The notes: generated from the letters alone by a model not told the origin. A stretch of 31,892 nt of DNA from a virus (IMGVR_UViG_2654587686_000018:1-31892); one strand, 5' to 3'; shown: positions 1 to 21,093, counted from the stretch's first letter. Numbers and translations are program-made.

Positions 1-492
1 AATGTATTCTAGCTTGGCGTTTGAATTATTTGATTGTTTGATTTCAAGTAATAATTCTGAAAGAACATTCTCATCTTGTGTTTTTTCGAATAAAATGTAA
101 GAGAAGAAAGAATGTTCTTTATAATAATCAACATTATTATTCTCCCTTATGAACTCAAGGAAAACATTTTTTGCTTCTTTAACTTTATTTTCTTCCAATA
201 ACGACTCTACAGGTAAAAACCAGTGAGTGTCCTTTCTTTCTTGTATATCAGTTGAAGGTGGGGTATCTAAATTTCCTGTTTCGTCTAGGTTATCATCATT
301 CGATATGGATTGATTTTCATCAGTTTCAAAAGTGAGCGGGCCCGCATTCATTTTTAATTTTTTTGCAGAGATTAATTTATTAATGAGTGATTTTAATTGC
401 TTATGATAAACTACTGCGATGACAATACAAAGAATTGGCCATAGAGAAAATTTTAATGCCGTGTCTATGAGTGAGTACATTTCAGGTGTCAT
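1..492 (-). CDS. hypothetical membrane-anchored protein, 5' part only (ORF runs off the window start); AT-rich accessory gene
   Basis: My own translation of the minus strand from the ATG at 490-492: MTPEMYSLIDTALKFSLWPILCIVIAVVYHKQL..., open to position 1. One N-terminal hydrophobic helix. Very AT-rich compared with the neighbouring phage genes. Same strand as CI and 14 bp downstream of its stop. Absent from the ORF track because it has no stop inside the window. Confidence 0.5.
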   Translation of the reverse strand, partial: MTPEMYSLIDTALKFSLWPILCIVIAVVYHKQLKSLINKLISAKKLKMNAGPLTFETDENQSISNDDNLDETGNLDTPPSTDIQERKDTHWFLPVESLLEENKVKEAKNVFLEFIRENNNVDYYKEHSFFSYILFEKTQDENVLSELLLEIKQSNNSNAKLEYI

Positions 493-506
493 ACCCTACG
501 TCCTGT

Positions 507-1064
507 TTAGATGAATGATTTTTTTATGTTCGCTTTGAAATTCAGATCTTTTATAGGGCAGTCAAAGGAAATATCATCCTTAGTCACCCTAACTGAGTTA
601 TTAGGTATACGCGATACATTTCTTATACTAAATTTTTCATCAATACTCAGAAGCCACTTGCCATCGGTAATATCTTCAAAAAATGAATCAGCAATGAATA
701 TGTTGTTATTTTCTTCGATAACAATGGGGCTGACAATATTTTTAGGTAGTATTGTTTTATCAAAAAAAACAGTTCCGGCATCATATAGATTTCCATCAAC
801 TATTTTTTGCTTATGCAATCTTAGAATGTCCTGCCTTTCTATATCAAAAACAGGACCATTACCGTTAACTAGCCAGGTCAGTGATGCTCCTGTTTGTAAA
901 GCGCATGTAATTACCCAATCTGATGGGAAAATATCTCTCATGTATCTAGTGGCAAGGGTGCTTTTCGATACACCCAAGTGATCGGCTAGCGCCTGCCGTG
1001 TGGTGAAACCATATGCTTCAACCAATCTCTCGATAACTTTTCGCCCACCACTGTTGAAATCCAT
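507..1064 (-). CDS. prophage repressor, coliphage 186 CI-like
   Basis: 185 aa with an N-terminal helix-turn-helix (AYGFTTRQALADHLGVSKSTLATRYMRD) and a pattern I recall from 186 CI. Good SD (aagggga) before the ATG at 1062-1064. Divergent from the rightward early operon. Confidence 0.7.
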   Translation of the reverse strand: MDFNSGGRKVIERLVEAYGFTTRQALADHLGVSKSTLATRYMRDIFPSDWVITCALQTGASLTWLVNGNGPVFDIERQDILRLHKQKIVDGNLYDAGTVFFDKTILPKNIVSPIVIEENNNIFIADSFFEDITDGKWLLSIDEKFSIRNVSRIPNNSVRVTKDDISFDCPIKDLNFKANIKKSFI

Positions 1065-1192
1065 TGCTTCCCCTTGGAATCTAATCGTTCTTGACAGATT
1101 CCAAAAGCGATCATAACATCACATCGAAAGTTCGCTTTCGGAATCTTCGCTTGTTAACACTATTAATCCTTGCTCACCACAAGCAGATCAAC
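1065..1192. promoter_or_regulatory. immunity switch region: candidate rightward lytic promoter plus operator-like repeats
   Basis: Perfect -35 TTGACA at 1091-1096, 17-bp spacer, -10-like TAACAT at 1114-1119. GGAATCT at 1076-1082 and 1140-1146, its reverse complement AGATTCC at 1096-1102. Palindrome CGAAAG-N4-CTTTCG at 1125-1140. Confidence 0.4.
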
Positions 1193-1429
1193 ATGGAATC
1201 ATGCATTATGAATCAACACATTTCAATCGCAATTACAACTCCACATGTAACTATTGAACGCTATAGTGAACTTACTGGTTTGTCGGTGGAGACTATCAAC
1301 GACATGTTGGCCGATGGACGGCTCATAAGGCATCGACTACGCAAAGATAAAAAGCGTGAAAAAGTGATGATTAACATCGCAGCCATGACAATAGATGCAC
1401 TTTCTAACAGCAACGTAATCATTAGTTAG
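1193..1429 (+). CDS. Apl/Cox-like small DNA-binding regulator or excisionase (start uncertain: ATG 1193 or 1208)
   Basis: First gene rightward from the switch. HTH-like segment ERYSELTGLSVETINDMLADGRL. The track ORF starts at a TTG at 1091 that coincides with the -35 hexamer, so an internal ATG is more likely. Confidence 0.45.
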   Translation: MESCIMNQHISIAITTPHVTIERYSELTGLSVETINDMLADGRLIRHRLRKDKKREKVMINIAAMTIDALSNSNVIIS

Positions 1430-1461
1430 TTCGATTTTGAGAACTTTTGGAGGCGTTGGCT

Positions 1462-1965
1462 ATGTTTGACTATCAAACTTCTAAACATGCTCACTTTGAT
1501 GCGGCTTGCCGAGCATTTGCAATTGAACACAATCTGGAAGATGTGGCCGCTGCCGTTGGCATGAGGCCGCAGATTCTGCGCAACAAATTGAATCCAGCAC
1601 AGCCGCACCGTTTAACCTGTGACGAGCTTTTAGCTATTACGGATTACACCGAAGATGCGCGTTTACTGGATGGAATGCTGGGGCAGATTAACTGCCTTCC
1701 ATCCGTACCGGTGAACAATGCTACAGAAGGCAACATGCAGTTGTGTGCACTGAGTGCCACAGCCAGTGTGGGCGCAATTGCTGGGGAAGCCGTATCAACT
1801 GGTCATATGACCGCCGCCCGCCGTACACAAATTCTGGATCGCGCTCGCGATGCAATCCGTAGCTTATCCGTGCTGGCTTATACCGTTGAAAGCCGTATCC
1901 AGTCTGCGCCTGTTCTGGCCGCAGCGGTGGATCTGGTGACGGCTAACGCCACAGGCTTGATATGA
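1462..1965 (+). CDS. CII-like transcriptional activator (186 CII family)
   Basis: ATG at 1462 preceded by GGAGG at 1449-1453. N-terminus MFDYQTSKHAHFDAACRAFA...LRNKLNPAQPH matches what I recall of 186 CII. Sits immediately after the Apl-like gene as in 186. Confidence 0.6.
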   Translation: MFDYQTSKHAHFDAACRAFAIEHNLEDVAAAVGMRPQILRNKLNPAQPHRLTCDELLAITDYTEDARLLDGMLGQINCLPSVPVNNATEGNMQLCALSATASVGAIAGEAVSTGHMTAARRTQILDRARDAIRSLSVLAYTVESRIQSAPVLAAAVDLVTANATGLI

Positions 1966-1974
1966 GGGAGCACC

Positions 1975-2202
1975 ATGAAAGCGTTTGTTACTTACCTGAA
2001 AAAAGAATCACCAGCCATGCAACGACCAAGCGGTTCAACGGGCTGGATAGAACTGCCGAACGGTCAGCGCTGGAATCCTGGCCACACGTATAAATTCAAT
2101 GCGCATGAGTCTGTTCGAATGAAAGGCGAGGTGGTTTTACGTTTCTTGCCTACAAAAGTCCGTCGCCTGGTTGGGTGTATAGGGGGGCGCTATGGCGATT
2201 AG
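1975..2202 (+). CDS. hypothetical early protein (75 aa)
   Basis: ORF with SD (gaggga) before the ATG; tightly packed in the early operon. Confidence 0.5.
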   Translation: MKAFVTYLKKESPAMQRPSGSTGWIELPNGQRWNPGHTYKFNAHESVRMKGEVVLRFLPTKVRRLVGCIGGRYGD

Positions 2203-2620
2203 CCAGGAACAACAAAAGCGCGGACTGGAACATTTAAAACAGATCCGCCGCAAATACTTCAGTGAAAGCAGCGAGGCCGCTGAATGGTGGGACAACCTGA
2301 CACCGGAGTGGCGCGGCGTGGTGCTTCATGCCGCTGCGGTTACTTCTGGCGCCAGGGCATTTAAAGCCCACTTAAGCAAGTGCTGCTGGCGTGAGCTTTA
2401 TGAACGCCTGGGCTATCGGGACATGATTGTGCTGCGCCAGGGCATTTCACGGGCGCGGTTAACGTTTGATGGTTTCGGCAGTTTACGTGACAGCGATTTT
2501 TCGAAGCGCACCGCGAACCGTCCGATCAAGAAGGTACATCCAATTTATAGCAGTAGCGGGGTGCAGATGGTAATCGCGCCTCATATCGTCCAAAAGTTGC
2601 AGCAACAGGGGAATCACTAA
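2192..2620 (+). CDS. hypothetical early protein (142 aa)
   Basis: ORF whose start overlaps the end of the previous gene, suggesting translational coupling. Confidence 0.5.
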   Translation: MAISQEQQKRGLEHLKQIRRKYFSESSEAAEWWDNLTPEWRGVVLHAAAVTSGARAFKAHLSKCCWRELYERLGYRDMIVLRQGISRARLTFDGFGSLRDSDFSKRTANRPIKKVHPIYSSSGVQMVIAPHIVQKLQQQGNH

Positions 2621-3021
2621 TGACCATTATTTCCGTCGAGGGTAAATCGTTGGGGGCAGAGTTGGCTGTGTGGGGAGTCCCGCATAACTACGCTTTGGCA
2701 TTTGCAGAGAAAAGCACCAGTAAAAATGGTCGCATTGCGTTGCATCCATTCTTCTTTAATGACACTGAGCACATGACTAATCCGCGTCACTGGCTGGCAG
2801 TCAATGCCGCTTTCTGGTGCTGCGTGTACCGCGAGGCCGAAAGCAAAGAAGCACAGATTGAAGCGCTGGCTGGAATCCGCGCCATTTTCTATACGGCCGG
2901 TGCGCTGGGTGTTGGCGAAATTAAAGCACTGATCCAGGAGTGGTGGCGGACAACGTACGAGCTGCACCTTATTCCAGCACCGAACCATTCCGCCGTCGCT
3001 GTACAACCCGCTTTTCACTAA
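2620..3021 (+). CDS. hypothetical early protein (133 aa)
   Basis: ATG overlaps the upstream stop (TAATG). Confidence 0.5.
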   Translation: MTIISVEGKSLGAELAVWGVPHNYALAFAEKSTSKNGRIALHPFFFNDTEHMTNPRHWLAVNAAFWCCVYREAESKEAQIEALAGIRAIFYTAGALGVGEIKALIQEWWRTTYELHLIPAPNHSAVAVQPAFH

Positions 3022-3088
3022 TTAACAACCTGAATTTTTTGGTCACAGCTTAGGTGGCCGGGGATTCTTTTGCCTTAAGGAAACCAAA

Positions 3089-3322
3089 ATGCACATGACA
3101 CGTCAGGATTTACCCGCAACGAAATCAGGTACTGACCTTCTGGCCATGCTCACCAAAGCCACACAGGAAGGTAAAGCCGCTGCTGCTGATCTGTGTTCCA
3201 CCCGTCTGGATAAGCTGGCCACCCATGCAGCCAATGAAGGTTTAAGCGCAACTGAAGTCATTGAGTTAATCCGCGAAGAAGCCGCAGCGATTTGCAGTAA
3301 GGGCGGTGCAGCATGGCAGTAA
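3089..3322 (+). CDS. hypothetical early protein (77 aa)
   Basis: ORF with SD (aagga) upstream; alanine-rich, predicted helical. Confidence 0.5.
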   Translation: MHMTRQDLPATKSGTDLLAMLTKATQEGKAAAADLCSTRLDKLATHAANEGLSATEVIELIREEAAAICSKGGAAWQ

Positions 3323-4182
3323 AAACTCCGCTTAAGTGGGTGGGCAGCAAAGCCCGCCTTATGCCGCAGTTGCTTCCCCATCTGCCGGAGGGTAAGCGCC
3401 TGATAGAACCTTTTGCCGGTTCCTGTGCTGTCATGATGAATACGGATTATGACGAGTATCTGATAGCTGATGTGAATCCTGACCTTGTTAATCTGTATAA
3501 GACGATGGCTTATCACACTGATGCATTGCTCATTGAGCTGGAGGCTTTATTTTCTGCCGGTTCATTAGGTGATGAAGAAAACCGGGCAATTTTCTATTAC
3601 GCGGTACGTGATGCCTTCAACCACTCCGGCAAATCCTTTGGTTCTGAATCTGTGGAAGCTGCGGCGCGTTTTCTTTATCTGAACCGTCACTGCTTCAATG
3701 GCCTGTGCCGATACAATCGCCGTGGCCAGTTCAATGTTCCGTTTGGTAAGTACAAAAAAACCTACTTTCCTGCTGATGAAATCCGCGCTTTTGCAGAAAA
3801 AGCGAAACGTGCAACGTTCATTACTGCCCACTATTCAGAAACGCTTGATTTGGTAAGGGACGGGCATGACGTTGTTTATTGTGATCCGCCTTACCTGACT
3901 GATACCGACAATTTCACCGCGTACCATGAGCGCGGTTTTTCTCACATGGATCAGGGGCGGCTGGCGCGTAAGCTGCGCCGCCTGGCTGAGCGTGGGATTA
4001 AGGTTGTCGCGTCAAACAGCGATCTGGAAATGGTGCATTACCTGTATGCAGGATTTGACGCTGTGCGGGTAAATGCCCCACGCAGTGTGGGTGCAGCAGC
4101 TGCAAGCCAGAAAGTTGCCGCAGAGCTGATTCTTAAGTCACCTGCAAACCCGGCGATCGGCGTTAGGGCGGTGGTGGCATGA
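3313..4182 (+). CDS. DNA adenine methyltransferase, Dam-like (N6-adenine, D12 class)
   Basis: N-terminus MAVKTPLKWVGSKARL and motifs EPFAGSCAV and DPPY are characteristic of Dam-family enzymes. No restriction endonuclease gene nearby. Confidence 0.85.
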   Translation: MAVKTPLKWVGSKARLMPQLLPHLPEGKRLIEPFAGSCAVMMNTDYDEYLIADVNPDLVNLYKTMAYHTDALLIELEALFSAGSLGDEENRAIFYYAVRDAFNHSGKSFGSESVEAAARFLYLNRHCFNGLCRYNRRGQFNVPFGKYKKTYFPADEIRAFAEKAKRATFITAHYSETLDLVRDGHDVVYCDPPYLTDTDNFTAYHERGFSHMDQGRLARKLRRLAERGIKVVASNSDLEMVHYLYAGFDAVRVNAPRSVGAAAASQKVAAELILKSPANPAIGVRAVVA

Positions 4183-4391
4183 TGGCGGAAATAATCACCG
4201 GCATTTATGCCTTGTTTGCCTGTATCACTTTCGTTTTTCTCTTATGGGACGAATGCAAGGATGAATTTGATCACGATGCTGAGGACTTAGGGTTAATCAC
4301 TCTGAGTGCGGTTTTCTGGCTACCGCTGGTAGCAGCCGTACTTGTGGCCTTCCTGATTGATTTCTGGCGGCAGTGGGTTAACCGTGGATGA
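4179..4391 (+). CDS. small hypothetical membrane protein (70 aa, two hydrophobic helices)
   Basis: ORF overlapping the methyltransferase stop; two hydrophobic stretches. Confidence 0.45.
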   Translation: MMAEIITGIYALFACITFVFLLWDECKDEFDHDAEDLGLITLSAVFWLPLVAAVLVAFLIDFWRQWVNRG

Positions 4392-4392
4392 T

Positions 4393-6408
4393 ATGCTGGA
4401 GCCTGGCCAACACCACGTCGTCAATGCCTGGCGGCGTGAAACCTTTGCGCCTGGCACTCCTTCAGATGCAACGATCACAGAACGCCGTTTGTGGGCTGTA
4501 AACCCACTGGATTATGAATGGCGTTCCCAGTACCTGCATGAAATACCCGACTGGTTAGCCGGGTATTTTGGCAACCGTTACGAAAAGCTGCTGGCTGGTC
4601 TTGACGGGCGTCGCCGTGCCAATACATTCCTGCGCAAAACTATCGGCGGGAATGTATTGCCACGTCTGCGCAAAGTGGCTGCACGTTACAAGCTGGCCGC
4701 TGATGCACTTGATCTTCCTTTCGGTAAGTCGCTGGAGCGACTGCCGTCACTTGACCGCCCGGAACTCAAAAAACTGGCTGGCCAGATATCTGGCTGGATC
4801 TCCCAGTCACTTTATGACTTCACCGATCAGTTTGTGGGCAGCACTGACGATGCCGCAGAGCTGCGCCGCCGTACGCTGGAGTCTTACGGCCATTTATGCA
4901 CGTGCTCCCTGATGCTGAACAATCAACCGCCGTACTGGGCTGAACATGAAGCCAATGGCGGACAACTGGAAACGCGTAAGGCTGAATCCGGGATTCTTCG
5001 CATGATGGCACCTGAATGGTGGTATCTGCGTCTTAAGCGGGCGCGTGATATGCAGCGTGAGCATATGGCCATTGCCGTAGGGCAGGTACAGAAAGCCGCC
5101 AGTGCTTATGTGTCACGTAAAACCCTGGGTGAATGGATAGACCAGAAAAAGCGGAACCTTGAGTTCTTTAAAAAGTTTGACCTGCTGAATGATGAAGGGC
5201 TGCGTATTGCACTGGACAGTATGGTGCACCGCAGCGTTGCTAATCCGGCGATCCGTCGCTGTGAGCTAATGGTAAGAATGAGAGGGTTTGAAGATATGGC
5301 CAATGAAGAAGGGCTGGCCGGTGAGTTTTACACCATCACCGCGCCATCACGATTCCATGCGGTACACAGCAAAGGAGGCTTTGTTTCACAATGGGATGGC
5401 TGCACCCCGCAGGACACCCAGCGCTACTTATGTGGCGTATGGGCGAAAGCCCGCGCCGCTATTTCCCGCGCAGGTATCCATGTTTTTGGTTTTCGTGTGG
5501 TAGAGCCTCACCACGATGGGACACCGCACTGGCATATGCTGCTTTTTATGCGTCCTGGTGACGTGGATACCGTGCGCGATATTCTTTGCTATCAAGCCAG
5601 AATTACCGACTCCGAAGAACTGCAAACGCCAAACGCGCTAAAGGCACGTTTCCATGTTGAAGCCATCGATCCCGCTAAAGGTTCGGCTACAGGTTATATC
5701 GCCAAATACATATCCAAAAACATTGATGGATTTGCGCTGGATGGTGAGCAGGATGATGAAACAGGGGAAAATCTGCGGGATATGGCCAAATCCGTTTCTG
5801 CATGGGCTTCACGCTGGCGCATTCGCCAGTTTCAGCAGATTGGTGGTGCGCCGGTGACAGTCTGGCGTGAGCTGCGTCGGTTGCGTGATCAGGTACTGAC
5901 TGACCGCAGAATGGATGCGGTTCTGGCTGCTGCGGATGTTGGGGACTGGGCTGCATACACCCAGGCACAGGGTGGCGCACTGGTTGCCCGCCGTGATCTG
6001 GTTGTTCGTCTGGCTTATGAAATTACAGAGCAGGGCAATGAATATGCAGAGGACGTGCAGCGCGTTCAGGGTGTCTATTCTCCATTGGTTCCAGATTCAG
6101 CGGTATGTACGCGTCTGGTGAAGTGGCAGAAGGTCGCGAAGTTGGCCGAAGCGCCAGCGGAGGCGGGTTTTTCTGGCGGCAACGCCGCCCCTTGGAGTTC
6201 TGTCAATAACTGTACGGAGGGTGGAACCCGCAGACGGTTAAAACTGGAATTGCGAAGCCGGGGTTTTGAAGGTTCTGACGATGAAATAGCCATTCTCATG
6301 CGGGGTAGTGGTTTGAGATTTGGCCAGGCGGCGTTGATTTACCGTAATGGCAGGTTACAGGAGACACGAAACGAGCCAATGCACGAGCTGTGGCCGGGGT
6401 GGTTGTAG
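4393..6408 (+). CDS. replication initiation endonuclease (P2 gpA / 186 RepA-like rolling-circle initiator)
   Basis: HUH-type motif HHDGTPHWHMLLF and catalytic tyrosine motif GYIAKYISKN. Track ORF begins at TTG 4357; the in-frame ATG at 4393 directly follows the upstream stop and is preferred. Confidence 0.85.
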   Translation: MLEPGQHHVVNAWRRETFAPGTPSDATITERRLWAVNPLDYEWRSQYLHEIPDWLAGYFGNRYEKLLAGLDGRRRANTFLRKTIGGNVLPRLRKVAARYKLAADALDLPFGKSLERLPSLDRPELKKLAGQISGWISQSLYDFTDQFVGSTDDAAELRRRTLESYGHLCTCSLMLNNQPPYWAEHEANGGQLETRKAESGILRMMAPEWWYLRLKRARDMQREHMAIAVGQVQKAASAYVSRKTLGEWIDQKKRNLEFFKKFDLLNDEGLRIALDSMVHRSVANPAIRRCELMVRMRGFEDMANEEGLAGEFYTITAPSRFHAVHSKGGFVSQWDGCTPQDTQRYLCGVWAKARAAISRAGIHVFGFRVVEPHHDGTPHWHMLLFMRPGDVDTVRDILCYQARITDSEELQTPNALKARFHVEAIDPAKGSATGYIAKYISKNIDGFALDGEQDDETGENLRDMAKSVSAWASRWRIRQFQQIGGAPVTVWRELRRLRDQVLTDRRMDAVLAAADVGDWAAYTQAQGGALVARRDLVVRLAYEITEQGNEYAEDVQRVQGVYSPLVPDSAVCTRLVKWQKVAKLAEAPAEAGFSGGNAAPWSSVNNCTEGGTRRRLKLELRSRGFEGSDDEIAILMRGSGLRFGQAALIYRNGRLQETRNEPMHELWPGWL

Positions 6409-6486
6409 CCTCGTAAGTCTGTGATACATCACTGTTTGTCAACGAATAGCAGCAAAAATCACTTTCACATTTTGTGCTTAAATGTA

Positions 6487-6506
6487 TACTGTATGAATAT
6501 ACAGTT
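6487..6506. promoter_or_regulatory. LexA (SOS) box
   Basis: TACTGTATGAATATACAGTT is a CTGT-N8-ACAG palindrome close to the E. coli LexA consensus. It overlaps a -10-like TATACT at 6485-6490. Confidence 0.7.
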
Positions 6507-6523
6507 ATTCTGTTTTTAGGAGG

Positions 6524-6742
6524 ATGCTTGTGCAGGATTTGTTTATGGAAACTATCGCATTGCAGCGGATTGCGTTGTTTACCAGGTTGATCGCCAAAAG
6601 TAATTGCACTGGCTGTGAAAAGGACATTGCACTTGCCTGGCTAAGCGAGCTGACTTCAGATCTGGAAAGTAAACTTGATGAATATGAAAGTAAAAACCCC
6701 CGGGAAGGGGGCTTATCAGGCGGCGGGAGTCGCTTTCAGTAG
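6524..6742 (+). CDS. small SOS-regulated protein, candidate Tum-like antirepressor (start ATG 6524 or GTG 6530)
   Basis: ORF immediately downstream of the LexA box with a strong SD AGGAGG at 6518-6523. Function inferred from position and regulation, not sequence identity. Confidence 0.4.
   Translation: MLVQDLFMETIALQRIALFTRLIAKSNCTGCEKDIALAWLSELTSDLESKLDEYESKNPREGGLSGGGSRFQ
6692..6711 (-). terminator. putative intrinsic terminator for the Ogr-like gene
   Basis: CCCCC/GGGGG stem with 5-nt loop at 6697-6711 and an A-run at 6692-6696 (U-run on the minus transcript), 5 nt past the stop at 6716. Confidence 0.4.
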
Positions 6743-6985
6743 GTCTAATGCCATTTGACGCTGATCGGGTGACAGTGCATTCAATATTTTCTGCACCATT
6801 GCATCACCCGTTTTCGCGCTGGGGCTGAGAGTGTGGGAGAACGTCAGATTCATCACAAACGTATGGCCACACTCCACATCTGAACAGGCGCAGTAAATAT
6901 CCGCAATCTGCCGGTGCTTCCGGTTTGTTTTACGAATAACAGCCTTTGAGCCGCATTCCGGGCATTCGATTTTCAGAACTCGCAT
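6716..6985 (-). CDS. Ogr/Delta-family zinc-finger late gene activator
   Basis: CPEC...CACSDVEC cysteine pattern (CxxC-N22-CxCxxxxC) as in P2 Ogr. Start placed at MRVLKIECPEC (ATG 6983-6985) with GGAG SD; the track ORF extends to 7039. Confidence 0.7.
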   Translation of the reverse strand: MRVLKIECPECGSKAVIRKTNRKHRQIADIYCACSDVECGHTFVMNLTFSHTLSPSAKTGDAMVQKILNALSPDQRQMALDLLKATPAA

Positions 6986-7035
6986 ATTCCATGCTCCAGC
7001 TGTTAAATGATGCCTGGATTTTAGCCTTTTTCGCC

Positions 7036-8097
7036 TCATGCCGCATCCTTATCCGTTGATTCTGTGTAACTTAAATCAAAGTGAAGGTGCAGACGTTCCG
7101 GTATTTCGGGATCGTTGTTCACGGCAGTCATAAACCGACGCTGAATAGGCGCTATCTCGCTTTTCTTGTAAATCCTTTCCGCCTTTTCAACATCCCCCAG
7201 GCCAGCTGTGTTCTGCGGAACAATTCCGGCCAGCCCTGCCGGAAAGCGGTGTGCGTTGAGAATGTCCTGTGCGCTGATGTTTTTGATGTTGGCAAATTCA
7301 TCTTTTGCAGAGATATCCCCCATTTCAATAAACTTGATCGCATCCCCATCCCCGCCTGGAATGTTCACCAGAATAGTGGAGAAGTTGCCGATACCTTTGC
7401 TGTCACGCAGCTGCTGTTCAATTTCTTCTTCCATTTCATCCGTCATACTGGGATCGCGCGTGTAGAGAATGCCGCCAGTATGGGCGCCGTTGTGGTAGTA
7501 ACGGCGGCGAAAAATCACGGCTTCGCTGTTAAGCAATGCAGAATGTACACCGCCGATATAGTCGGGCAGCCCGTAAATATGCTGTTGCGGGTCGTACATC
7601 TTGATAAAAATGATATCTTCCTGTGGCCATACCTGCGGTTCCCCGTCCTGCAATACCACATAATCGCCGGGCTGGTCTGTGGCGTTGTCCCTGACTTTAC
7701 GGCGGCGAATATACAGGCCGGGTAAAGGTTCCAGGGCAATCACATCCCCCCATCCGTTGCGGATTTTGCCAATCGCAATATCCCCGAAGGTTGTATAGTC
7801 AAACGCTGCGGCTTCCAGTTGGTCGTAAGTCAGGCCACCGCCCAGATAATCAGACACAATCATATTTTTCCGGGCGTGGATGATGCCGCCATGCTGACCG
7901 TTCAGATTGATAAGCTGTGCCAGTGCCAGCCGGTCAATCGGCTGGGTGAAGTGATCGGCGGCATTGTCGTACCAGATGTCGCGGTAATCCGTGCCGGTGG
8001 TCAGGACGGGTTCCGGTTTGCCGAATGTGATGATGCTCATTTTTTTGGACTTATCGCCGCGCGGGTTGCGCTTAACGAAGCGTTTTTTTTTACTCAT
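7036..8097 (-). CDS. portal protein (P2 gpQ-like)
   Basis: 353 aa; segments YGLPDYIGGVHSALLNSEAVIFRRRYYHNGAHTGG and DISAKDEFANIKNISAQDILNAHRFP resemble P2 Q. Stop overlaps the terminase gene. Confidence 0.9.
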   Translation of the reverse strand: MSKKKRFVKRNPRGDKSKKMSIITFGKPEPVLTTGTDYRDIWYDNAADHFTQPIDRLALAQLINLNGQHGGIIHARKNMIVSDYLGGGLTYDQLEAAAFDYTTFGDIAIGKIRNGWGDVIALEPLPGLYIRRRKVRDNATDQPGDYVVLQDGEPQVWPQEDIIFIKMYDPQQHIYGLPDYIGGVHSALLNSEAVIFRRRYYHNGAHTGGILYTRDPSMTDEMEEEIEQQLRDSKGIGNFSTILVNIPGGDGDAIKFIEMGDISAKDEFANIKNISAQDILNAHRFPAGLAGIVPQNTAGLGDVEKAERIYKKSEIAPIQRRFMTAVNNDPEIPERLHLHFDLSYTESTDKDAA

Positions 8098-12623: not shown

Positions 12624-12719
12624 AGACTACCGCAAGCCAGGCGGACGCGGTGGAGGGCAGAACACTCCGTGTGTCACTGTGCCGTGGAAACCGGTCAGTC
12701 CGCCTTTTTCGGGGGAATT

Positions 12720-13172
12720 ATGTTTAGCGGAAAACCGCTGGATTATCAGGATGAGCCGCTGACGAATAACGGGTTCTGGCCGGATCTGAATCTGAAGGAC
12801 TTTCAGGCGCAGCGGTCACTGCCAGCTGATATCGACGCGGACACCATCAGTCAGGCGCTGCTGGCCGCAGTCGCGGAGGTGAATGCCGAGCTGGAAAACG
12901 TGGAGGCCAGCTGGAAAGCAAAAGGCCACACGCTGGCAGCAGATGTTCCGGGCGTAAAAATGGGCGGGCTTAACAGTCTGTGTGCCCAGTACATGAAAGC
13001 GGTATTTGCCAGGGCAAAAGCGGATCTGCTGGGGGAGTTCGCCACTGTAGGGCGACGTGAAACCCATCCGGGACAGGAAAGTATGGAAACCCGCGCCGGG
13101 TTACTGGCTGAGGCTTCAGTGGTTATCCGCCGCATGAAGGGGCTTAAACGTGCAACGGTGAAAAAAGTATGA
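12720..13172 (+). CDS. head completion/stabilisation protein (P2 gpL-like)
   Basis: Position after gpM. In-frame ATG at 12720 (MFSGKPL) preferred over the track start at 12669. Confidence 0.6.
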   Translation: MFSGKPLDYQDEPLTNNGFWPDLNLKDFQAQRSLPADIDADTISQALLAAVAEVNAELENVEASWKAKGHTLAADVPGVKMGGLNSLCAQYMKAVFARAKADLLGEFATVGRRETHPGQESMETRAGLLAEASVVIRRMKGLKRATVKKV

Positions 13173-13675
13173 GCCAGACGCAGCTTGAGAGCCTGACTGC
13201 ATTTTTTCAGCAAAACGTGCCGCCGCGCGCCATGCAGTCATTTGACAGTGTGCTGGATGAAATGAAGTTCATCCCCGCCGCGAAGGATTACGGGCTGGGG
13301 CAGTACCGCCAGGCGGTGATTCGCTATGACGCGGTAATCAGCTGGCAGCGTTTCCCGTATCGCCTGTGTCCGCCGCAGTTGCTCATGTCGCTGCTGGCCG
13401 CGTGGCTGGATGAGGCTGACAGGGAATTACTGGATGAAGTCGGCCTGACTGAAGCTGAACCGGACTGGGATGTGTCAGTGGAGGATGAGGAAACCGCCAC
13501 CATTGTGCTGACGGTACCAATGGCGGAAGAACTGGTGATCAGGGAGGACGAAAACGGGGCGATCCCGTGGCGGGGGAAACGCTGGTCGCTGGTTAACCCT
13601 GAAGTCTGGATAGCGATCACCGCCAATATTTATGGCGTGGATGAAACCGGTGCGCCGGTAGGCGGTAACGAATGA
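13169..13675 (+). CDS. putative head-tail joining / tail completion protein
   Basis: 168-aa ORF translationally coupled (ATGA) between the head and tail genes. Family not recognised with confidence. Confidence 0.45.
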   Translation: MSQTQLESLTAFFQQNVPPRAMQSFDSVLDEMKFIPAAKDYGLGQYRQAVIRYDAVISWQRFPYRLCPPQLLMSLLAAWLDEADRELLDEVGLTEAEPDWDVSVEDEETATIVLTVPMAEELVIREDENGAIPWRGKRWSLVNPEVWIAITANIYGVDETGAPVGGNE

Positions 13676-14379
13676 TTGCCGGTGGTGAGCTGAATAAAAA
13701 ACAGCTGGCAGAGTTGCGTAAATCACTGGCCAGCATGGAGCTGCCGCCCAAAAAGCGCCAGCGTCTTATCTGGAGGCTGGCCAAATATGGCGTGATTGCT
13801 GCCGCAAAACGGCACGTTCGCAATCAGGAAGCACCGGATGGCCAGAAGTGGCCGGGGCGTAAAACGAAGCGCAAAGGGAAGATGCTGCGGAACCTGCCAA
13901 AACTGCTGCATATCCGTGAAATGCCAGAAATTCAGGCGGTACGGATTTATTTGCAGGGTGGTGGCTACCGGAACGGGGAAACGCCGTTACCGGCCGGGAC
14001 AGTCGGATATGCGCAACAAAACGGGATGCGCGTCAGTGTCAGCCGTCGCAGTCAGCCACGGAAGGTGGAGGCCGGAAAAATGGCCATGCCAGCCCAGGCC
14101 AAAAAACTGCGGGCGCTGGGGTACCGGGTACGCACCGGTAAACGCTGGAAAAAGCCCACGCTGGGCGAGTTAACCCAAACGATGCCATACAGCCGGGCGG
14201 GGCTACTGATTCGAAAACTCAGCGGTAAAGCGGTGAAAACCAGCTGGACAGTGGATCTTCCTGCCCGTGTATTTCTGGGCATGAGTGACGATGAATTTGA
14301 TAACGCGCTGGCGCGTCAGCTTCAGGCCATCGGCTTTGGCTGGGATGTTAAGGCGCAGGATATTAAGGGGAAAGCATGA
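13672..14379 (+). CDS. putative virion morphogenesis protein
   Basis: 235-aa basic protein, coupled to flanking genes; assignment by position only. Confidence 0.45.
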   Translation: MIAGGELNKKQLAELRKSLASMELPPKKRQRLIWRLAKYGVIAAAKRHVRNQEAPDGQKWPGRKTKRKGKMLRNLPKLLHIREMPEIQAVRIYLQGGGYRNGETPLPAGTVGYAQQNGMRVSVSRRSQPRKVEAGKMAMPAQAKKLRALGYRVRTGKRWKKPTLGELTQTMPYSRAGLLIRKLSGKAVKTSWTVDLPARVFLGMSDDEFDNALARQLQAIGFGWDVKAQDIKGKA

Positions 14380-15503
14380 CCTGGCCAAACGTGACCGTGA
14401 ACCAGGTAAACCAGCTGCTGGGTGAAACCAATGAAGTGGAACGCACGCTGCTGTTTATCGGTACGGGTACCAAAAATGTGGGGAAAACGCTGGCGGTGAA
14501 TGCCCAGAGTGATTTTGATGCACTTCTGGGAGAAGGGGAAAGCCCACTGAAAAGCGATGTTCTGGCGGCACTGGCAAACGCCGGTCAGAACTGGTGGGCA
14601 TTTATTCATGTGCTGCCCGCAGATGCTGAGGACGATGCCTGGGTGAAAGCGGTTCTGGCTGCACAGGTGGTGTGTTCGGTGGAAGGGGTAGTGCTGTCCA
14701 GTGATGTGACGGCCAAAGCCCAGGTGAATCAGGCTGCGACGTTACGATCCACGCTGATTTCCAAATATGGGCGCTGGGTGTGGTTCATCCTGGCCGTGCA
14801 GGGAATGCAGGAAGAAGAAGCCCTGGCGGATTACCTGACCCGTGTGTCTGCCATCCAGGACGGGATTGCAGAGAAGGCGGTGCAGCTGGTCCCGCGTCTG
14901 TGGGGAAATGAGCCGGGTGTGCTGGCTGGCCGTCTGTGCAGTCGTGCCGTGACTATCGCAGACAGTCCCGCCCGTGTGAAAACCGGGGCGCTGCTGAATC
15001 TGGGCAGTGATGAAATGCCGGTTGATGGTACTGGGGCAGTACTGGAGCTGGCCACACTTCAGGCACTGGAAGCGCAGCGTTTTAGTGTACCGATGTGGTA
15101 CCCGGATTATGACGGCTTTTACTGGGCTGACGGGCGAACGCTGGATGTGGAAGGCGGCGATTATCAGTCTATTGAAACCCTGCGTGTTGCCGATAAAGCG
15201 GCGCGTCGTGTACGTCTGCTGGCTATCAGCAAAATTGCGGATCGCTCACTGAACAGCACACCGGGCAGCATCGCTGCACACCAGACGTTGTTTGCACGTC
15301 CACTGCGTGAAATGTCCACAGCGGCCAGTATCAATGGCGTGTCATTTCCGGGGGAAGTGAAGCCGCCGCAGGACGGTGACGTGACCATTGTCTGGAAGAA
15401 CAAAAAGACGGTGGATATTTATCTGGTGGTACGCACCTGGGAAGTTCCGCTGCAAATCACCATCAGTCTGTTACTGGATGCCAGTCTGGAGGGCGCTGCA
15501 TGA
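14376..15503 (+). CDS. putative tail sheath-like structural protein
   Basis: 375 aa, first large gene of the tail block, followed by a tube-sized gene. Not P2 FI-like by sequence. Confidence 0.45.
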   Translation: MTWPNVTVNQVNQLLGETNEVERTLLFIGTGTKNVGKTLAVNAQSDFDALLGEGESPLKSDVLAALANAGQNWWAFIHVLPADAEDDAWVKAVLAAQVVCSVEGVVLSSDVTAKAQVNQAATLRSTLISKYGRWVWFILAVQGMQEEEALADYLTRVSAIQDGIAEKAVQLVPRLWGNEPGVLAGRLCSRAVTIADSPARVKTGALLNLGSDEMPVDGTGAVLELATLQALEAQRFSVPMWYPDYDGFYWADGRTLDVEGGDYQSIETLRVADKAARRVRLLAISKIADRSLNSTPGSIAAHQTLFARPLREMSTAASINGVSFPGEVKPPQDGDVTIVWKNKKTVDIYLVVRTWEVPLQITISLLLDASLEGAA

Positions 15504-15955
15504 GTAAACGTATTTCGGGTATGTCGTTTGATACCTATCTTGATGGCGATCTGATCCATATCGAGAAAATCACACTCGATATCACGGATAACAGCGCCGC
15601 CGCCCAGACCCGTGGTGTGCCGGATGGCCATGTTGATGGTGATGTGGCCGCAGAGGGAGAAATTGAAGTCAGTTCCAAAGTGCTGGGCGTACTGACGGCT
15701 AAAGCCCGCGCCGCAGGTTCGTGGCGTGGTATTCCGCCGCTGGATTTTCTTTTCTATGCCAAAGCGGGCAGCGAAGAAATGAAAGTGGAATCGTTCGGTA
15801 ACAAACTCCAGCTGAGTAATCTGCTGGATATCGATCCAAAGGGCGGCGGTGTGGCGACGCACAAAATCAAATATTTTGTGACCAGTCCCAAGTTCGTGAA
15901 CATCAACGGTGTGCCGTATCTGGAAGCGGAAGCCACGGAAAACCTGATCGGATAA
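15500..15955 (+). CDS. putative tail tube-like protein
   Basis: 151 aa immediately after the sheath-like gene with overlapping start. Confidence 0.45.
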   Translation: MSKRISGMSFDTYLDGDLIHIEKITLDITDNSAAAQTRGVPDGHVDGDVAAEGEIEVSSKVLGVLTAKARAAGSWRGIPPLDFLFYAKAGSEEMKVESFGNKLQLSNLLDIDPKGGGVATHKIKYFVTSPKFVNINGVPYLEAEATENLIG

Positions 15956-15965
15956 GGAAGCCGGA

Positions 15966-16268
15966 ATGCAGGAACATGAAAAGAGCCTTTATTCACTGCT
16001 GATTATGGGGGCGCTCATTGCTGTTGCGAAGGTGCTGGCCAGTGATGATCCCATTACACCGCGCCTGTTTATCAGCCGTGTGATCCTGGGCAGTTTTGTT
16101 TCAGTCATCGCTGGCGCGGTGCTGATTCAAATCCCGGAGGCCAGCCCGCTGGCAATTCAGGGACTGGGGGCAGCGCTGGGTATTGCAGGTTATCAGGCTG
16201 TTGAAATGTGGCTGCGCAGACGTGCAGCGGGAAAGAAGAACGGGAGCGTGACAAATGACCCTGAGTGA
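15966..16268 (+). CDS. holin
   Basis: 100 aa with three hydrophobic segments and a charged C-terminus (RRRAAGKKNG); directly precedes the endolysin. Confidence 0.65.
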   Translation: MQEHEKSLYSLLIMGALIAVAKVLASDDPITPRLFISRVILGSFVSVIAGAVLIQIPEASPLAIQGLGAALGIAGYQAVEMWLRRRAAGKKNGSVTNDPE

Positions 16269-16596
16269 AAAGCAGCAGCTGTTTACCGTCATGGTGGCCA
16301 ACCTGATCCACTGGGCAGAAGAACGCGGCTACCGGCTGACGTTTGGTGAAGCGTACCGCACCCCGGAACAGGCGGCGCTGAACGCGAAGAAGGGCAGCGG
16401 TATTTCGAACAGTCTGCACACCCAGCGTCTGGCCGTGGATTTTAACCTGTTTGTGAATGGCCAGTACCAGACCCGTACAGAGGACTATCTGCCGCTGGGT
16501 GAATACTGGGAATCACTGGGCGGAAGCTGGGGTGGGCGCTTCAAATCCAGACCGGATGGTAATCATTTCAGCCTGGAACATAACGGGGTGCGCTGA
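16255..16596 (+). CDS. endolysin, peptidase M15-type (zinc D-Ala-D-Ala carboxypeptidase fold)
   Basis: 113 aa with SLHTQRLAVDFNLF (H-x6-D) and a C-terminal HFSLEH motif typical of M15 peptidase endolysins. Confidence 0.8.
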   Translation: MTLSEKQQLFTVMVANLIHWAEERGYRLTFGEAYRTPEQAALNAKKGSGISNSLHTQRLAVDFNLFVNGQYQTRTEDYLPLGEYWESLGGSWGGRFKSRPDGNHFSLEHNGVR

Positions 16597-16976
16597 TGAG
16601 TCACGCGCAGTGGCTGGTTGTGGTGGCGCTGGCGTTTGTCTGGGGCTGGCTGACAGCTGACTGGCGGCGCGACAGTCTGGAGCTGGCAATCAATACGGCG
16701 GCGCAGGTGGCGGGTAATGAATCGCGAAAGGCTATGCAGGGCATTGCCAGTGATTCCGCCAGGGAGCTGGAAGATAAACTGGAGGCGCTAAGAAATGCGC
16801 AACCGCGAGAGATCCGCACGGAAGTGCTTAAGCCGGTTTTTACTAACAGGTGCCTGTCTGATGAGTTTGTCAGCATGTACAACAGCGCCGTCGCCGGTAC
16901 CGAACGTGCGTTATCAGGAAAACCTGAAAACACGATGCGCCACGCAGCTGCCGCGCCTGAACGGGGCAACAGGTAA
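16596..16976 (+). CDS. i-spanin (Rz-like)
   Basis: N-terminal hydrophobic anchor (WLVVVALAFVWGWL) followed by a charged, helical periplasmic domain; position after the endolysin. Confidence 0.65.
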   Translation: MSHAQWLVVVALAFVWGWLTADWRRDSLELAINTAAQVAGNESRKAMQGIASDSARELEDKLEALRNAQPREIRTEVLKPVFTNRCLSDEFVSMYNSAVAGTERALSGKPENTMRHAAAAPERGNR

Positions 16977-17094
16977 AGATGCAGCGGAACTGCTGACTGT
17001 TTACCTTGAAATATATGGCCAGTGTGCGGCGCGTCATAATCAATTAGTTGATGAAATTAATTTAAGAGAGCGTGTTATTTATGGAACAAATTAA
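16795..17094 (+). CDS. o-spanin (Rz1-like outer-membrane lipoprotein), overlapped architecture
   Basis: +1-frame ORF starting inside the i-spanin gene. Signal peptide ending in lipobox LSAC. Runs past the i-spanin stop. Confidence 0.55.
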   Translation: MRNRERSARKCLSRFLLTGACLMSLSACTTAPSPVPNVRYQENLKTRCATQLPRLNGATGKDAAELLTVYLEIYGQCAARHNQLVDEINLRERVIYGTN

Positions 17095-19586: not shown

Positions 19587-19912
19587 GTGAGAGTCTTTAT
19601 ATTGATTTGCTTATTCAGGGCGGTGATTTTGTTCTGAATACCGGATATGAACCTGAACTGTGTAATAACCGTAAAAGTATCGGACAGGACATTATTCATT
19701 CCATTATTGAAAGCGGGCTGGCAACGGAACTGATTGCCGAACGCAGCCCAACAATGCGGGCGGATATTTTTACCCGTATGGAATTACTGATTGAAGATGA
19801 TGAACGGATTATTCCGGGAACAGTGGAAATCAGTGAGGAAAGCCAGAAACGATTATGGATAACGGCCAGCACCTATGACTTTGGCGGCATATCTGCGCAG
19901 GTGGATTTATGA
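19583..19912 (+). CDS. putative baseplate protein (gpW-like position)
   Basis: 109 aa, coupled between the tape measure and the baseplate J-like gene. Confidence 0.45.
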   Translation: MSESLYIDLLIQGGDFVLNTGYEPELCNNRKSIGQDIIHSIIESGLATELIAERSPTMRADIFTRMELLIEDDERIIPGTVEISEESQKRLWITASTYDFGGISAQVDL

Positions 19913-21093
19913 CGGAAAAACCGCAGGTTGATTTTGAGGAAGTGGTGAAGGCCAGCGGGATGCCGGTGACGGAATCTGAAGTGCGGGATCGCTTTAATGC
20001 GATTGCGGCTGAGGAGGGCATGATCACTAACACATCCCGTATGTCACCGTTCTGGCGGTTAATTACGGCCATTGTGACTGCGCCGGTGATGTGGCTGAAA
20101 GAGGTTCTGGTGTCCACGGTGCTGGCCAATATGTTTGTGGCCACGGCCAGCGGGAGCATGCTGCGCCTGTTGGCCTGGGCGGTGAACGTGACGGCGAAAC
20201 CTGCCAGCGCTGCGCAGGGTGTGATCCGTTTCTTTAAGGAAGATGCCAGAGCCGTTGTGACGGTGAAGGCCAGAACGGTTATCCAGACTGAACGCATCAA
20301 CGGCAGGGTGTACGAACTGGCGACCACGGGCGATGTGGTGATCCCTTCCGGCACGGACAGCGCATTGCTGCCGGTGAAAGCCACCGGAACCGGGGGAGCC
20401 TATAACCTTGCGCCAGGGTATTACCGCATTTTGCCTGTGGCCGTGGATGGTATCAGCCATGTGGCCAGCGAGGAAAACTGGCTGACGGTGCCGGGTGCCG
20501 ATGAAGAAAGCGATGATGAACTGCGTGAACGCTGCCGCAACCAGTTCAATCTGGTGGGCAATTACCACACGGATGCGGTTTACCGTTCAATGATTGCCGG
20601 TGTTGCCGGGCTGAGTATTGACCGGATTTTCTTTGAGCATGAAGCGCCGAGGGGACCGGGTACCGCAAACGCCTATCTGTTGCTGGACAGTGGGGTGGCT
20701 TCCGCACCGTTCGTGAATGCGGTGAATGATTACATCAACACGCAGGGACATCACGGCCACGGCGACGATATGCAGTGTTACGCCATGCCGGAAACCCGTC
20801 ACGATCTGGCTGTGACGGTGTTCGTCAGAAATCTGGCCAACCTGACAGATGACGAACGGAACAGCCTGAAGGCTGGCATTGAAAACATGATCCGCTGTGC
20901 TTTTCGTGAAAACGCTGATTTTGACGTCAGAAAGACGTGGCCATATTCGCGGTTCTCGTTTTCTCAGTTGGGGGGGGAGATCCACAAAACCTTTGCGCTG
21001 GCGGATTCGCTGTCCTTTTCACTGGGTGACATTACCAGTGAGCTGAATGTGCCGCGTCTGAAGTCACTGGTAGTGAGTCTTGAGAATGAATGA
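19909..21093 (+). CDS. baseplate assembly protein, J-like
   Basis: 394 aa in the W-J-I-fibre order typical of P2-type baseplates; weak sequence resemblance to gpJ. Confidence 0.55.
   Translation: MTEKPQVDFEEVVKASGMPVTESEVRDRFNAIAAEEGMITNTSRMSPFWRLITAIVTAPVMWLKEVLVSTVLANMFVATASGSMLRLLAWAVNVTAKPASAAQGVIRFFKEDARAVVTVKARTVIQTERINGRVYELATTGDVVIPSGTDSALLPVKATGTGGAYNLAPGYYRILPVAVDGISHVASEENWLTVPGADEESDDELRERCRNQFNLVGNYHTDAVYRSMIAGVAGLSIDRIFFEHEAPRGPGTANAYLLLDSGVASAPFVNAVNDYINTQGHHGHGDDMQCYAMPETRHDLAVTVFVRNLANLTDDERNSLKAGIENMIRCAFRENADFDVRKTWPYSRFSFSQLGGEIHKTFALADSLSFSLGDITSELNVPRLKSLVVSLENE

What the first reader, a model, noticed from the sequence alone, without database searches (positions are those of the whole stretch)
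3313..4182. Orphan Dam-family adenine methyltransferase in the early operon
A D12-class N6-adenine methyltransferase (DPPY motif) is encoded just upstream of the replication initiator with no restriction endonuclease partner. A phage-borne Dam could protect against GATC-directed restriction, modulate replication or packaging, or alter host gene expression in the lysogen.
Basis: partly seen in the sequence, partly recalled or inferred. Interest (0 to 1): 0.45.

Follow-up and report, generated by a model that had tools for sequence, protein, structure and literature searches.

The report
Ordinary prophage Dam methylase gene
This is an intact, well-conserved copy of the DNA adenine methylase (Dam) gene that many P2/186-like prophages of enteric bacteria carry just before their replication gene; it is already annotated in public genomes, so it is ordinary.

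Summary
Window 3313..4182 (+) is a 289-aa ORF that matches the D12/Dam family over its full length (Pfam PF02086 E=1.7e-66; TIGR00571 270 bits against a cutoff of 115). It is 41% identical to E. coli Dam, and its predicted fold matches EcoDam (TM 0.79/0.92). DPPY and the EcoDam GATC-contact residues I mapped are kept or conservatively replaced, and dN/dS is 0.05-0.17, so it is most likely an active GATC methylase. The window is a 186-type P2-like prophage (Peduoviridae, close to Quadragintavirus) next to host ybjL/ybjM. dam sits in the rightward early operon (apl-cII-fil-...-DUF2732-dam-70 aa ORF-A), overlaps both neighbours and has no convincing promoter of its own. No restriction enzyme was found among the proteins scanned in the window or in the gene tables of 11 related loci, so "orphan" is supported. 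The identical protein is called on contigs in 43 index blocks; a 99% identical cluster is named "DNA adenine methylase [Citrobacter freundii]", and the gene is annotated in ICTV-classified phages. Being in what is presumably a CI-repressed operon argues against a role in the lysogen. GATC is not depleted, and switch-region GATCs are not conserved. The likely role, which is inferred, is topping up GATC methylation on replicating phage DNA. Low interest.

The parts
3313..4182 (+). dam: 289-aa alpha-class (D12) N6-adenine DNA methyltransferase, predicted target GATC
   Evidence: dN/dS is 0.05-0.17 against relatives.
3412..3426 (+). Motif I (AdoMet binding), F34-A-G-S-C38. EcoDam has FVGAG and T2 Dam has FCGGL
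   Evidence: G36, S37 and C38 are invariant in 54 clade members, and F34 and A35 nearly so.
3694..3756 (+). DNA-recognition hairpin, residues 128-148: F128 N129 L131 R133 N135 N141 P143 K146 Y147 K148, equivalent to EcoDam Y119 N120 L122 R124 N126 N132 P134 R137 Y138 K139
   Evidence: Mapping. Roles of R124, Y119, L122, P134, N120, K9 and Y138 come from PMC4417163.
3883..3894 (+). Catalytic motif IV, D191-P-P-Y194. The codons GAT CCG themselves contain a GATC site
3089..3322 (+). Upstream DUF2732 gene (77 aa). Its last 10 nt overlap the dam start, and AAGGG lies 8-9 nt before the ATG, so translational coupling is likely
4179..4391 (+). 70-aa ORF with two hydrophobic helices. Its ATG overlaps the dam stop (ATGA). 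It is variable cargo, present only in some relatives
4393..6408 (+). Gene A, the rolling-circle replication initiator (671 aa)
   Evidence: PF05840 E=1.5e-103. The start was placed by comparison with relatives.
1091..1119 (+). pR-like promoter (TTGACA-17-TAACAT), the likely source of the early transcript that includes dam
   Evidence: best match in 1-7200. Consensus match only.
3039..3061 (+). Conserved hairpin (GGYCAC-N7-GTGGCC) in the only intergenic gap of the operon, 28 nt before the DUF2732 gene. It may attenuate transcription into dam and A
   Evidence: The folding-energy z-score is not significant.

Best explanation
The gene encodes an active, solitary Dam-type methyltransferase that puts N6-methyl groups on the adenine of GATC, using the same recognition chemistry as E. 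coli Dam. It is one cistron of the rightward early lytic operon of a 186-type P2-like prophage and overlaps the reading frames on both sides. It should therefore be made together with the replication initiator gpA after induction or infection, not in the quiescent lysogen. Its most likely job is to add methylation capacity while the phage genome (98 GATC sites in 27.3 kb) replicates faster than the scarce host Dam can follow, so that progeny DNA is packaged fully rather than partly methylated. That would protect it from nucleases that cut un- or hemi-methylated GATC, such as MboI/DpnII-type restriction enzymes and MutH. Shown here: family, fold, motif and contact-residue conservation, purifying selection, operon position, and no partner nuclease found among the genes examined. 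Inferred: GATC specificity, timing of expression, and the biological payoff.
For: Family: PF02086 E=1.7e-66, TIGR00571 269.8 bits against 114.85, and EcoDam 2g1p E=2e-59. Fold: AF2 model pLDDT 83.4, best PDB hits EcoDam at TM 0.79/0.92 and rmsd 2.4-2.5, followed by DpnM and T4 Dam, all three of them GATC enzymes (own knowledge). Specificity residues: K8, N129, L131, R133, N135, N141, P143, Y147 and DPPY are identical to EcoDam, with Y119->F (as in T2/T4 Dam) and R137->K. Their roles are described in PMC4417163. These residues are invariant or nearly so across 54 clade members of 66-99% identity. Selection: dN/dS 0.05-0.17 with dS up to about 2. Operon context and coupling. Synteny without a nuclease in 11 related loci. 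PADLOC's best model is the orphan MTase. Host Dam is limiting for phage DNA: lambda is 46% GATC-methylated on wild-type E. coli and 77% with extra Dam (bioRxiv 10.1101/2025.08.29.673000). GATC is not avoided in the prophage: observed/expected is 0.93 from base composition and 0.77 from a Markov model, mid-range among 4-bp palindromes.
Against: No activity or specificity was measured. Motif I reads FAGSC where EcoDam has FVGAG, and there are two clade-specific insertions (about residues 84-88 and 109-113) in the DNA-binding domain, so kinetics or specificity could differ from EcoDam. The likely hosts already have Dam (own knowledge), so the benefit of a second GATC methylase is unproven. The same lambda study found that raising methylation did not change mismatch-repair outcome. 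[quoted passage not shown] Promoter and terminator calls are consensus matches no more numerous than in shuffled sequence, so expression timing rests on analogy with phage 186.
Confidence: 0.8

Rival explanations
1. It is the methylase half of a Type II restriction-modification system (DpnII/MboI type) whose endonuclease went unrecognised, for example one of the unannotated ORFs, or the 527-aa gene between int and cI that is truncated at the left edge of the window.
For: PADLOC's Type II MTase model scores almost as well as the orphan model (298.7 against 305.9 bits). Several nearby ORFs have no known function. The 527-aa ORF is probably expressed in the lysogen.
Against: None of the unknown ORFs hits any PADLOC model, which would include any restriction-endonuclease models in that library. 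The 527-aa ORF, the 70-aa ORF and the low-GC cargo are absent from relatives that keep dam (L001, L010-L013). The dam-flanking genes are conserved phage early genes.
Confidence: 0.03
2. It acts as an epigenetic regulator. Either it is expressed in the lysogen to reprogramme host genes, or it acts during the lytic switch by methylating GATC sites in the phage's own pR/pL region (1109, 1186) or in the origin inside gene A.
For: A GATC abuts the -10 hexamer of the pR-like promoter and another lies near the predicted pL start. Three GATC sites in gene A are conserved in all 7 relatives at 72-96% nt identity. Host Dam affects excision of the P2-like SopE-phi prophage in Salmonella (PMC7380047).
Against: Six of 8 dam-carrying relatives have no GATC at all in the CI-Apl intergenic region. 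The conserved sites in A are all GAT (Asp) followed by a C-initial codon, so protein constraint can explain them. There is no GATC enrichment in the early region, with 21 observed against 20.7-24.8 expected. There is no promoter-like site directly upstream of dam. Host Dam would methylate the same sites anyway.
Confidence: 0.08
3. It is a relaxed-specificity or non-GATC adenine methylase that gives broad anti-restriction cover, like some other phage-borne methylases.
For: The clade has invariant differences from EcoDam: motif I Gly->Cys and two insertions in the DNA-binding domain. It fails the host-Dam equivalog cutoff (258.8 against 441). Relaxed-specificity prophage adenine methylases exist (PMC7556043). 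Relatives stack a second methylase (dcm type) at the same locus, which suggests an anti-restriction slot.
Against: R133 (EcoDam R124, the residue that enforces the fourth base pair), L131 and P143 (third base pair), and K8 and Y147 (first base pair) are all retained and invariant. The three closest solved structures are all GATC enzymes (own knowledge).
Confidence: 0.08
4. It is a decaying, catalytically dead remnant.
For: None beyond the unusual motif I.
Against: The ORF is intact and full length. dN/dS is 0.05-0.17. DPPY and D53 are invariant and F34 nearly so. The identical protein is found on contigs in 43 index blocks of the assembly collection.
Confidence: 0.01

Closest known systems
Dam of Escherichia phages ESSI2_ev015 / ev040 / ev129 (Peduoviridae, Quadragintavirus) and Cronobacter phage ESSI-2 (Seongnamvirus)
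   Same: The protein is 90-92% (ESSI2_ev015) and 82% (ESSI-2) identical. In ev015 and ESSI-2 the gene sits directly before the gpA replication gene of a 186-type P2-like genome; in ev129 a second methylase lies in between. It is already annotated as DNA (adenine) methyltransferase.
   Different: Here a 70-aa membrane-type ORF separates dam from A, and the 3'-5' exonuclease + DUF3850 pair (ev015, ev040, ev129) and the extra dcm-type methylase (ev129) are absent.
E. coli Dam (EcoDam; PDB 2g1p, 4rtj)
   Same: Same alpha-class D12 fold (TM 0.79/0.92), DPPY, and all base-contact residues. The predicted GATC target is the same.
   Different: Only 41% identical. It is below the host-Dam equivalog cutoff. 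Motif I is FAGSC, there are two short insertions and a 2-residue deletion after DPPY. It is phage-borne and lies in a lytic operon, not in the chromosomal damX-dam-rpe context.
T2/T4 Dam
   Same: A phage-encoded solitary GATC methylase of the same family. It shares F at the intercalating position, K at the EcoDam R137 position, and the lack of the 2 residues after DPPY.
   Different: 23% identity. T2 and T4 are virulent phages with modified cytosines (own knowledge). Several EcoDam contact residues are not conserved in T2 Dam (K9->A, N120->S, L122->M, Y138->R in the alignment).
Dam genes of other temperate phages (P1, VT-2/933W, HP1, PhiARM81mr)
   Same: [quoted passage not shown] HP1 is also P2-related (own knowledge).
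   Different: They were not compared by sequence here. P1 Dam is linked to pac-site packaging (own knowledge), whereas P2-like phages package from cos sites (own knowledge).

Membership tests
Dam family / D12-class alpha N6-adenine DNA methyltransferase (PF02086, TIGR00571) | Full-length profile match above the curated cutoffs | tested here: met
   PF02086 225 bits against 22, residues 9-257 on profile positions 1-251 of 253. TIGR00571 269.8 bits against 114.85.
Dam family / D12-class alpha N6-adenine DNA methyltransferase (PF02086, TIGR00571) | Catalytic motif IV, DPPY | tested here: met
   D191-P-P-Y194, invariant in 54 clade members and aligned to EcoDam 181-184 and T2 Dam 171-174.
Dam family / D12-class alpha N6-adenine DNA methyltransferase (PF02086, TIGR00571) | AdoMet-binding motif I (FxGxG) at the N-terminus, followed by the acidic residue that binds the ribose | tested here: met
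   F34-A-G36-S-C38 and D53. The FxG core and the Asp are kept. The last Gly is Cys here (invariant in the clade) and Leu in T2 Dam, so that position is not strictly required.
Dam family / D12-class alpha N6-adenine DNA methyltransferase (PF02086, TIGR00571) | Two-domain fold: Rossmann catalytic domain plus helical DNA-binding domain with a beta-hairpin | tested here: met
   AF2 model pLDDT 83.4, pTM 0.84. Foldseek top hits are EcoDam (E=1.7e-26, TM 0.79/0.92), DpnM and T4 Dam.
Dam family / D12-class alpha N6-adenine DNA methyltransferase (PF02086, TIGR00571) | GATC-reading residues of EcoDam (K9, Y119, N120, L122, R124, P134, Y138) | tested here: met
   K8, F128 (conservative, as in T2/T4 Dam), N129, L131, R133, P143 and Y147. 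Roles are from PMC4417163.
Dam family / D12-class alpha N6-adenine DNA methyltransferase (PF02086, TIGR00571) | Actual m6A methylation of GATC | not testable with these tools
   Needs a DpnI/MboI assay in a dam-negative host, or SMRT/nanopore methylome calling.
Host chromosomal Dam ortholog (NCBIfam equivalog NF008152 / PRK10904) | Score above the equivalog cutoff, and the chromosomal damX-dam-rpe context | tested here: not met
   258.8 bits against a cutoff of 441. The context is a phage early operon, not damX/rpe.
Orphan (solitary) methyltransferase | No cognate restriction endonuclease in the neighbourhood, and conservation of the methylase without one | tested here: met
   No nuclease or defence hit for any unknown ORF tested. 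Gene tables of 11 related loci show no nuclease near dam. PADLOC's best model is oMTase PDLC03729. An unrecognisable nuclease fold cannot be excluded absolutely, and several smaller late-region ORFs were not scanned.
Type II R-M system (DpnII/MboI type) | An adjacent endonuclease gene that co-occurs with the methylase | tested here: not met
   Same evidence as above. The variable unknown ORFs do not co-occur with dam.
186-type P2-like phage (Peduoviridae) early lytic operon | CI repressor divergent from Apl/Cox-like, CII, Fil and then gpA on one strand, followed by Ogr/Delta, portal and terminase | tested here: met
   PF07022/PF16452, PF06892, PF10893, PF05840 and PF04606. The closest phages are classified in Peduoviridae.

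The most novel reading that the evidence does not exclude
This prophage clade's Dam may not be a mere duplicate of host Dam. Its invariant peculiarities are the motif I Gly->Cys change, two insertions in the DNA-binding domain, and placement in the same early operon directly before, or one cargo gene before, the rolling-circle initiator gpA. These could mark a high-capacity or altered-specificity enzyme that the phage needs as a counter-defence or replication accessory. It might shield rolling-circle products from MutH, from restriction, or from a defence system that senses under-methylated GATC. The dam-to-A slot would then be a dedicated anti-restriction cargo site, which fits the extra dcm-type methylase found there in ESSI2_ev129.
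Probability: 0.12. Interest if true: 0.4.

Novelty: already known. Interest (0 to 1): 0.12.

Why it matters
It matters little on its own. Solitary Dam genes in temperate phages of enteric bacteria have been known for decades. This exact protein is already in public assemblies, a 99% identical cluster is named "DNA adenine methylase", and its genomic position is the same in ICTV-classified relatives. The open question is general rather than specific to this locus: why do phages of Dam-positive hosts carry their own Dam? A clean knockout in a P2-like phage, with methylome read-out of virion DNA and plating on hosts that carry different defence systems, would address that question. This prophage would be as good a model as any other.

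Tried and rejected
1. GATC avoidance or enrichment. There are 98 sites in the prophage against 105 (base composition) or 127 (Markov) expected, which is unremarkable among 4-bp palindromes, and there is no enrichment in the early region, dam or gene A. Rejected as a signal.

2. Dam-controlled lysis-lysogeny switch. The two GATCs at pR/pL in the window are absent from 6 of 8 dam-carrying relatives. Rejected as a conserved feature.

3. Dam-marked origin. Three GATCs in gene A are conserved in 7 relatives, but all sit in an Asp + C-initial codon context. Inconclusive. The P2/186 ori nick site was not located.

4. Hidden endonuclease partner. PADLOC, Pfam and PHROG scans of all unknown ORFs, including the 527-aa int-cI gene, gave nothing, and those ORFs do not co-occur with dam. 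Rejected.

5. Own promoter for dam. No promoter-like site lies between 1466 and 4600 on the + strand, and counts do not exceed shuffles.

6. Hairpin at 3039-3061 as a terminator. The stem is conserved but there is no proper U-tract and the energy z-score is -0.15. Left open.

7. Literature searches for an experimental study of Dam in enterobacterial P2-like phages found none in the held library.

8. Two malformed look-ups returned nothing.

Full report
**Observation**

The ORF is present exactly as described: 3313..4182 on the + strand, ATG start, 289 aa.
- It matches Pfam PF02086 (D12-class N6-adenine methyltransferase) from end to end, E=1.7e-66.
- It matches the NCBIfam Dam subfamily TIGR00571 at 269.8 bits against a cutoff of 114.85.
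- It does not reach the cutoff of the host-Dam equivalog NF008152 (258.8 against 441).
- The best solved relatives are E. coli Dam (2g1p, E=2e-59), then DpnM, then T4 Dam.
- DPPY is at residues 191-194, nt 3883-3894.

**What the window is**

- The neighbours are a 186-type CI repressor (507..1064, minus strand) and, on the + strand, an Apl/Cox-like ORF, CII (PF06892), Fil (PF10893), two unknown ORFs and DUF2732.
- Next come dam, a 70-aa ORF and gpA (PF05840, E=1.5e-103).
- On the minus strand follow Ogr/Delta, portal and terminase, and after them P2/HP1-type head, tail and baseplate genes.
- The right end of the window carries host ybjL-like and ybjM genes. The left end cuts into a 527-aa ORF that lies between int and cI in identical contigs.
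- The closest annotated phages are Escherichia phages ESSI2_ev015/ev040/ev129 (Peduoviridae, Quadragintavirus; Dam 92% identical over residues 1-277 by tblastn, 90% in the MAFFT alignment) and Cronobacter phage ESSI-2.
- The 10.2 kb that overlaps each of three NCBI assembly contigs is 99.96-99.98% identical to them, and the identical Dam protein is indexed in 43 blocks of the assembly collection.
- A 99% identical cluster is named "DNA adenine methylase [Citrobacter freundii]".
- PGAP annotates the same five-gene stretch in a 95.6% identical E. coli prophage as hypothetical, DUF2732, DNA adenine methylase, hypothetical, replication endonuclease.

**Is the enzyme intact, and what should it recognise?**

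- In an alignment with EcoDam (41% identity) and T2 Dam (23%), the residues that read GATC in EcoDam are conserved. K9, N120, L122, R124, N126, N132, P134, Y138 and K139 correspond to identical K8, N129, L131, R133, N135, N141, P143, Y147 and K148.
- Y119 is Phe, as in T2/T4 Dam, and R137 is Lys.
- The roles of these residues are taken from PMC4417163: R124 enforces the fourth base pair, Y119 intercalates, L122 and P134 read the third pair, and K9 and Y138 the first.
- Across 54 clade members of 66-99% identity, these positions and DPPY are invariant or nearly so.
- Motif I reads FAGSC where EcoDam has FVGAG. The Cys is invariant in the clade, and T2 Dam has Leu at that position, so the FxG core is what is conserved.
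- Two short insertions (about residues 84-88 and 109-113) and a 2-residue deletion after DPPY distinguish the clade from EcoDam.
- An AlphaFold2 model (pLDDT 83.4, pTM 0.84) superposes on EcoDam-DNA complexes at TM 0.79/0.92 and rmsd about 2.5 Å.
- Pairwise dN/dS against six relatives is 0.05-0.17, with dS up to about 2.
- Together this indicates an active enzyme with predicted GATC specificity. Activity itself could not be tested.

**Orphan status**

- None of the window proteins I scanned matches an endonuclease. The unknown ORFs tested were 2192-2620, 2620-3021, 4179-4391, 27291-27623, 28192-28554, 28583-28981 and the 527-aa int-cI gene. None has a PADLOC hit, none has a Pfam hit above its curated cutoff, and PHROG matches, where any, are to families of unknown function. 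The small ORF 6524-6742 was scanned against Pfam and PHROGs only.
- Several smaller late-region ORFs (about 12669-17094, 19583-19912 and 21080-21673) were not scanned.
- Gene tables of 11 related loci, with Dam identity from 69% to 100%, show no nuclease near dam.
- DUF2732 is immediately upstream of dam in 8 of these 11. ev015 and ev129 have an exonuclease and a DUF3850 gene in between, and ESSI-2 has no annotated DUF2732.
- gpA is immediately downstream in 6 of the 11. L006-L009 have the 70-aa ORF in between, and ev129 has a second methylase.
- The variable ORFs, including the 527-aa gene, are missing from relatives that keep dam, so they are not obligate partners.
- PADLOC's top model for the protein is "orphan methyltransferase" (305.9 bits), narrowly ahead of a Type II methylase model.

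**Expression context**

- dam overlaps the end of the DUF2732 gene by 10 nt, with AAGGG 8-9 nt upstream of its ATG. Its stop overlaps the ATG of the 70-aa ORF (ATGA), and gene A starts 2 nt after that ORF's stop. This packing suggests one polycistronic message with translational coupling.
- The only strong promoter-like site on the + strand is TTGACA-17-TAACAT at 1091-1119, facing promoter-like sites on the other strand about 65-70 bp away, as in phage 186 (own knowledge). None lies directly upstream of dam. These are consensus matches and are no more frequent than in shuffled sequence.
- A hairpin with a conserved stem and variable loop (3039-3061) sits in the single intergenic gap before the DUF2732 gene and might attenuate transcription. 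Its folding energy is not unusual.
- By analogy with 186, dam should be silent in the lysogen and switched on together with gpA.

**Tests of a regulatory role**

- GATC is neither depleted nor enriched: 98 sites in 27.3 kb of prophage against 105-127 expected, and 21 against 21-25 in the early region.
- Two GATCs lie in the switch region, one abutting the pR-like -10 hexamer, but 6 of 8 dam-carrying relatives have none there.
- Three GATCs in gene A are conserved in all seven relatives. Each is a GAT Asp codon followed by a C-initial codon, so protein constraint suffices to explain them.
- I found no sequence evidence for a conserved Dam-dependent switch or origin.

**Most likely role**

- Host Dam is limiting for a replicating phage: lambda virion DNA is 46% GATC-methylated on wild-type E. 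coli and 77% when Dam is overproduced (bioRxiv 10.1101/2025.08.29.673000).
- A phage-encoded Dam co-expressed with the replication initiator would close that gap. Progeny DNA would then be fully methylated and resistant to nucleases that act on un- or hemi-methylated GATC.
- The benefit is unproven. The same study saw no effect of extra methylation on mismatch-repair outcome for lambda. [quoted passage not shown]
- P2 itself has no methylase (PMC3091744), so the gene is accessory. The locus is a cargo slot: relatives add a 3'-5' exonuclease plus DUF3850 before dam, or a dcm-type methylase after it, and this window has the 70-aa membrane-type ORF instead.

**Verdict**

The gene is ordinary. It belongs to a very large family (6451 database proteins at E<=1e-10 among the candidates scored; 1281 phage records by tblastn). 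A 99% identical form is already named in public genomes, and the gene sits in the same place in classified relatives. Interest is low. The residual novelty lies in whether the clade-specific sequence features change kinetics or specificity, and in the unanswered general question of what phage Dam is for.

Noticed in passing
window 4179-4391 (+): A 70-aa ORF with two hydrophobic helices (about residues 4-23 and 37-63) is wedged between dam and gene A, with its start overlapping the dam stop. It has no Pfam, PHROG or PADLOC match and is annotated only as hypothetical. It is present in about 9 of 31 related E. coli prophages, while other relatives join dam directly to A.
   Followed up: partly
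window 1-492 (-); full gene in L007 1597-3180: The window's left edge truncates a 527-aa low-GC (0.34) ORF lying between integrase and cI, probably transcribed with cI in the lysogen. It has an N-terminal hydrophobic helix, belongs to PHROG 31809 (unknown function) and has no Pfam or PADLOC hit. It is absent from several dam-carrying relatives, so it looks like a lysogen-expressed accessory gene (moron), possibly a defence or exclusion gene.
   Followed up: partly
window 3039-3061 (+): A hairpin GGYCAC-N7-GTGGCC followed by GGGGATTCTTTTGCC lies in the only intergenic gap of the early operon. The stem is conserved and the loop varies in six relatives. It is flagged as terminator-like, but the folding energy is no better than shuffled sequence. 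It could be an attenuator or a protein-binding palindrome.
   Followed up: partly
L001 4319-5235; L002 3834-4864 and 5702-6712: Relatives carry different cargo in the DUF2732-to-A interval. ESSI2_ev015, ev040 and ev129 have a 3'-5' exonuclease plus a DUF3850 'RNA-binding' gene before dam. ESSI2_ev129 also has a second, dcm-type cytosine methylase between dam and A. This interval appears to be a hotspot for DNA-modification cargo.
   Followed up: no
window 27291-28981: Three small low-GC ORFs (110 aa +, 119 aa -, 131 aa -) lie between the last tail/baseplate gene and host ybjL. Two match PHROGs of unknown function and none matches PADLOC. This is probably prophage-end cargo. The attachment-site boundary was not mapped.
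   Followed up: no
window 1091-1232: Promoter-like sites face each other (pR-like on the + strand at 1091-1119, pL-like on the - strand at 1232-1198), with predicted starts about 65-70 bp apart. This resembles the convergent pR/pL switch of phage 186 (own knowledge). GATC sites at 1109 and 1186 fall inside it but are not conserved in relatives.
   Followed up: partly
window 4711, 5668, 5995 (inside gene A): Three GATC sites are conserved in all seven gpA genes compared (72-96% nt identity). All are in GAT (Asp) + C-initial codon context. Whether any lies at the replication origin was not determined.
   Followed up: partly
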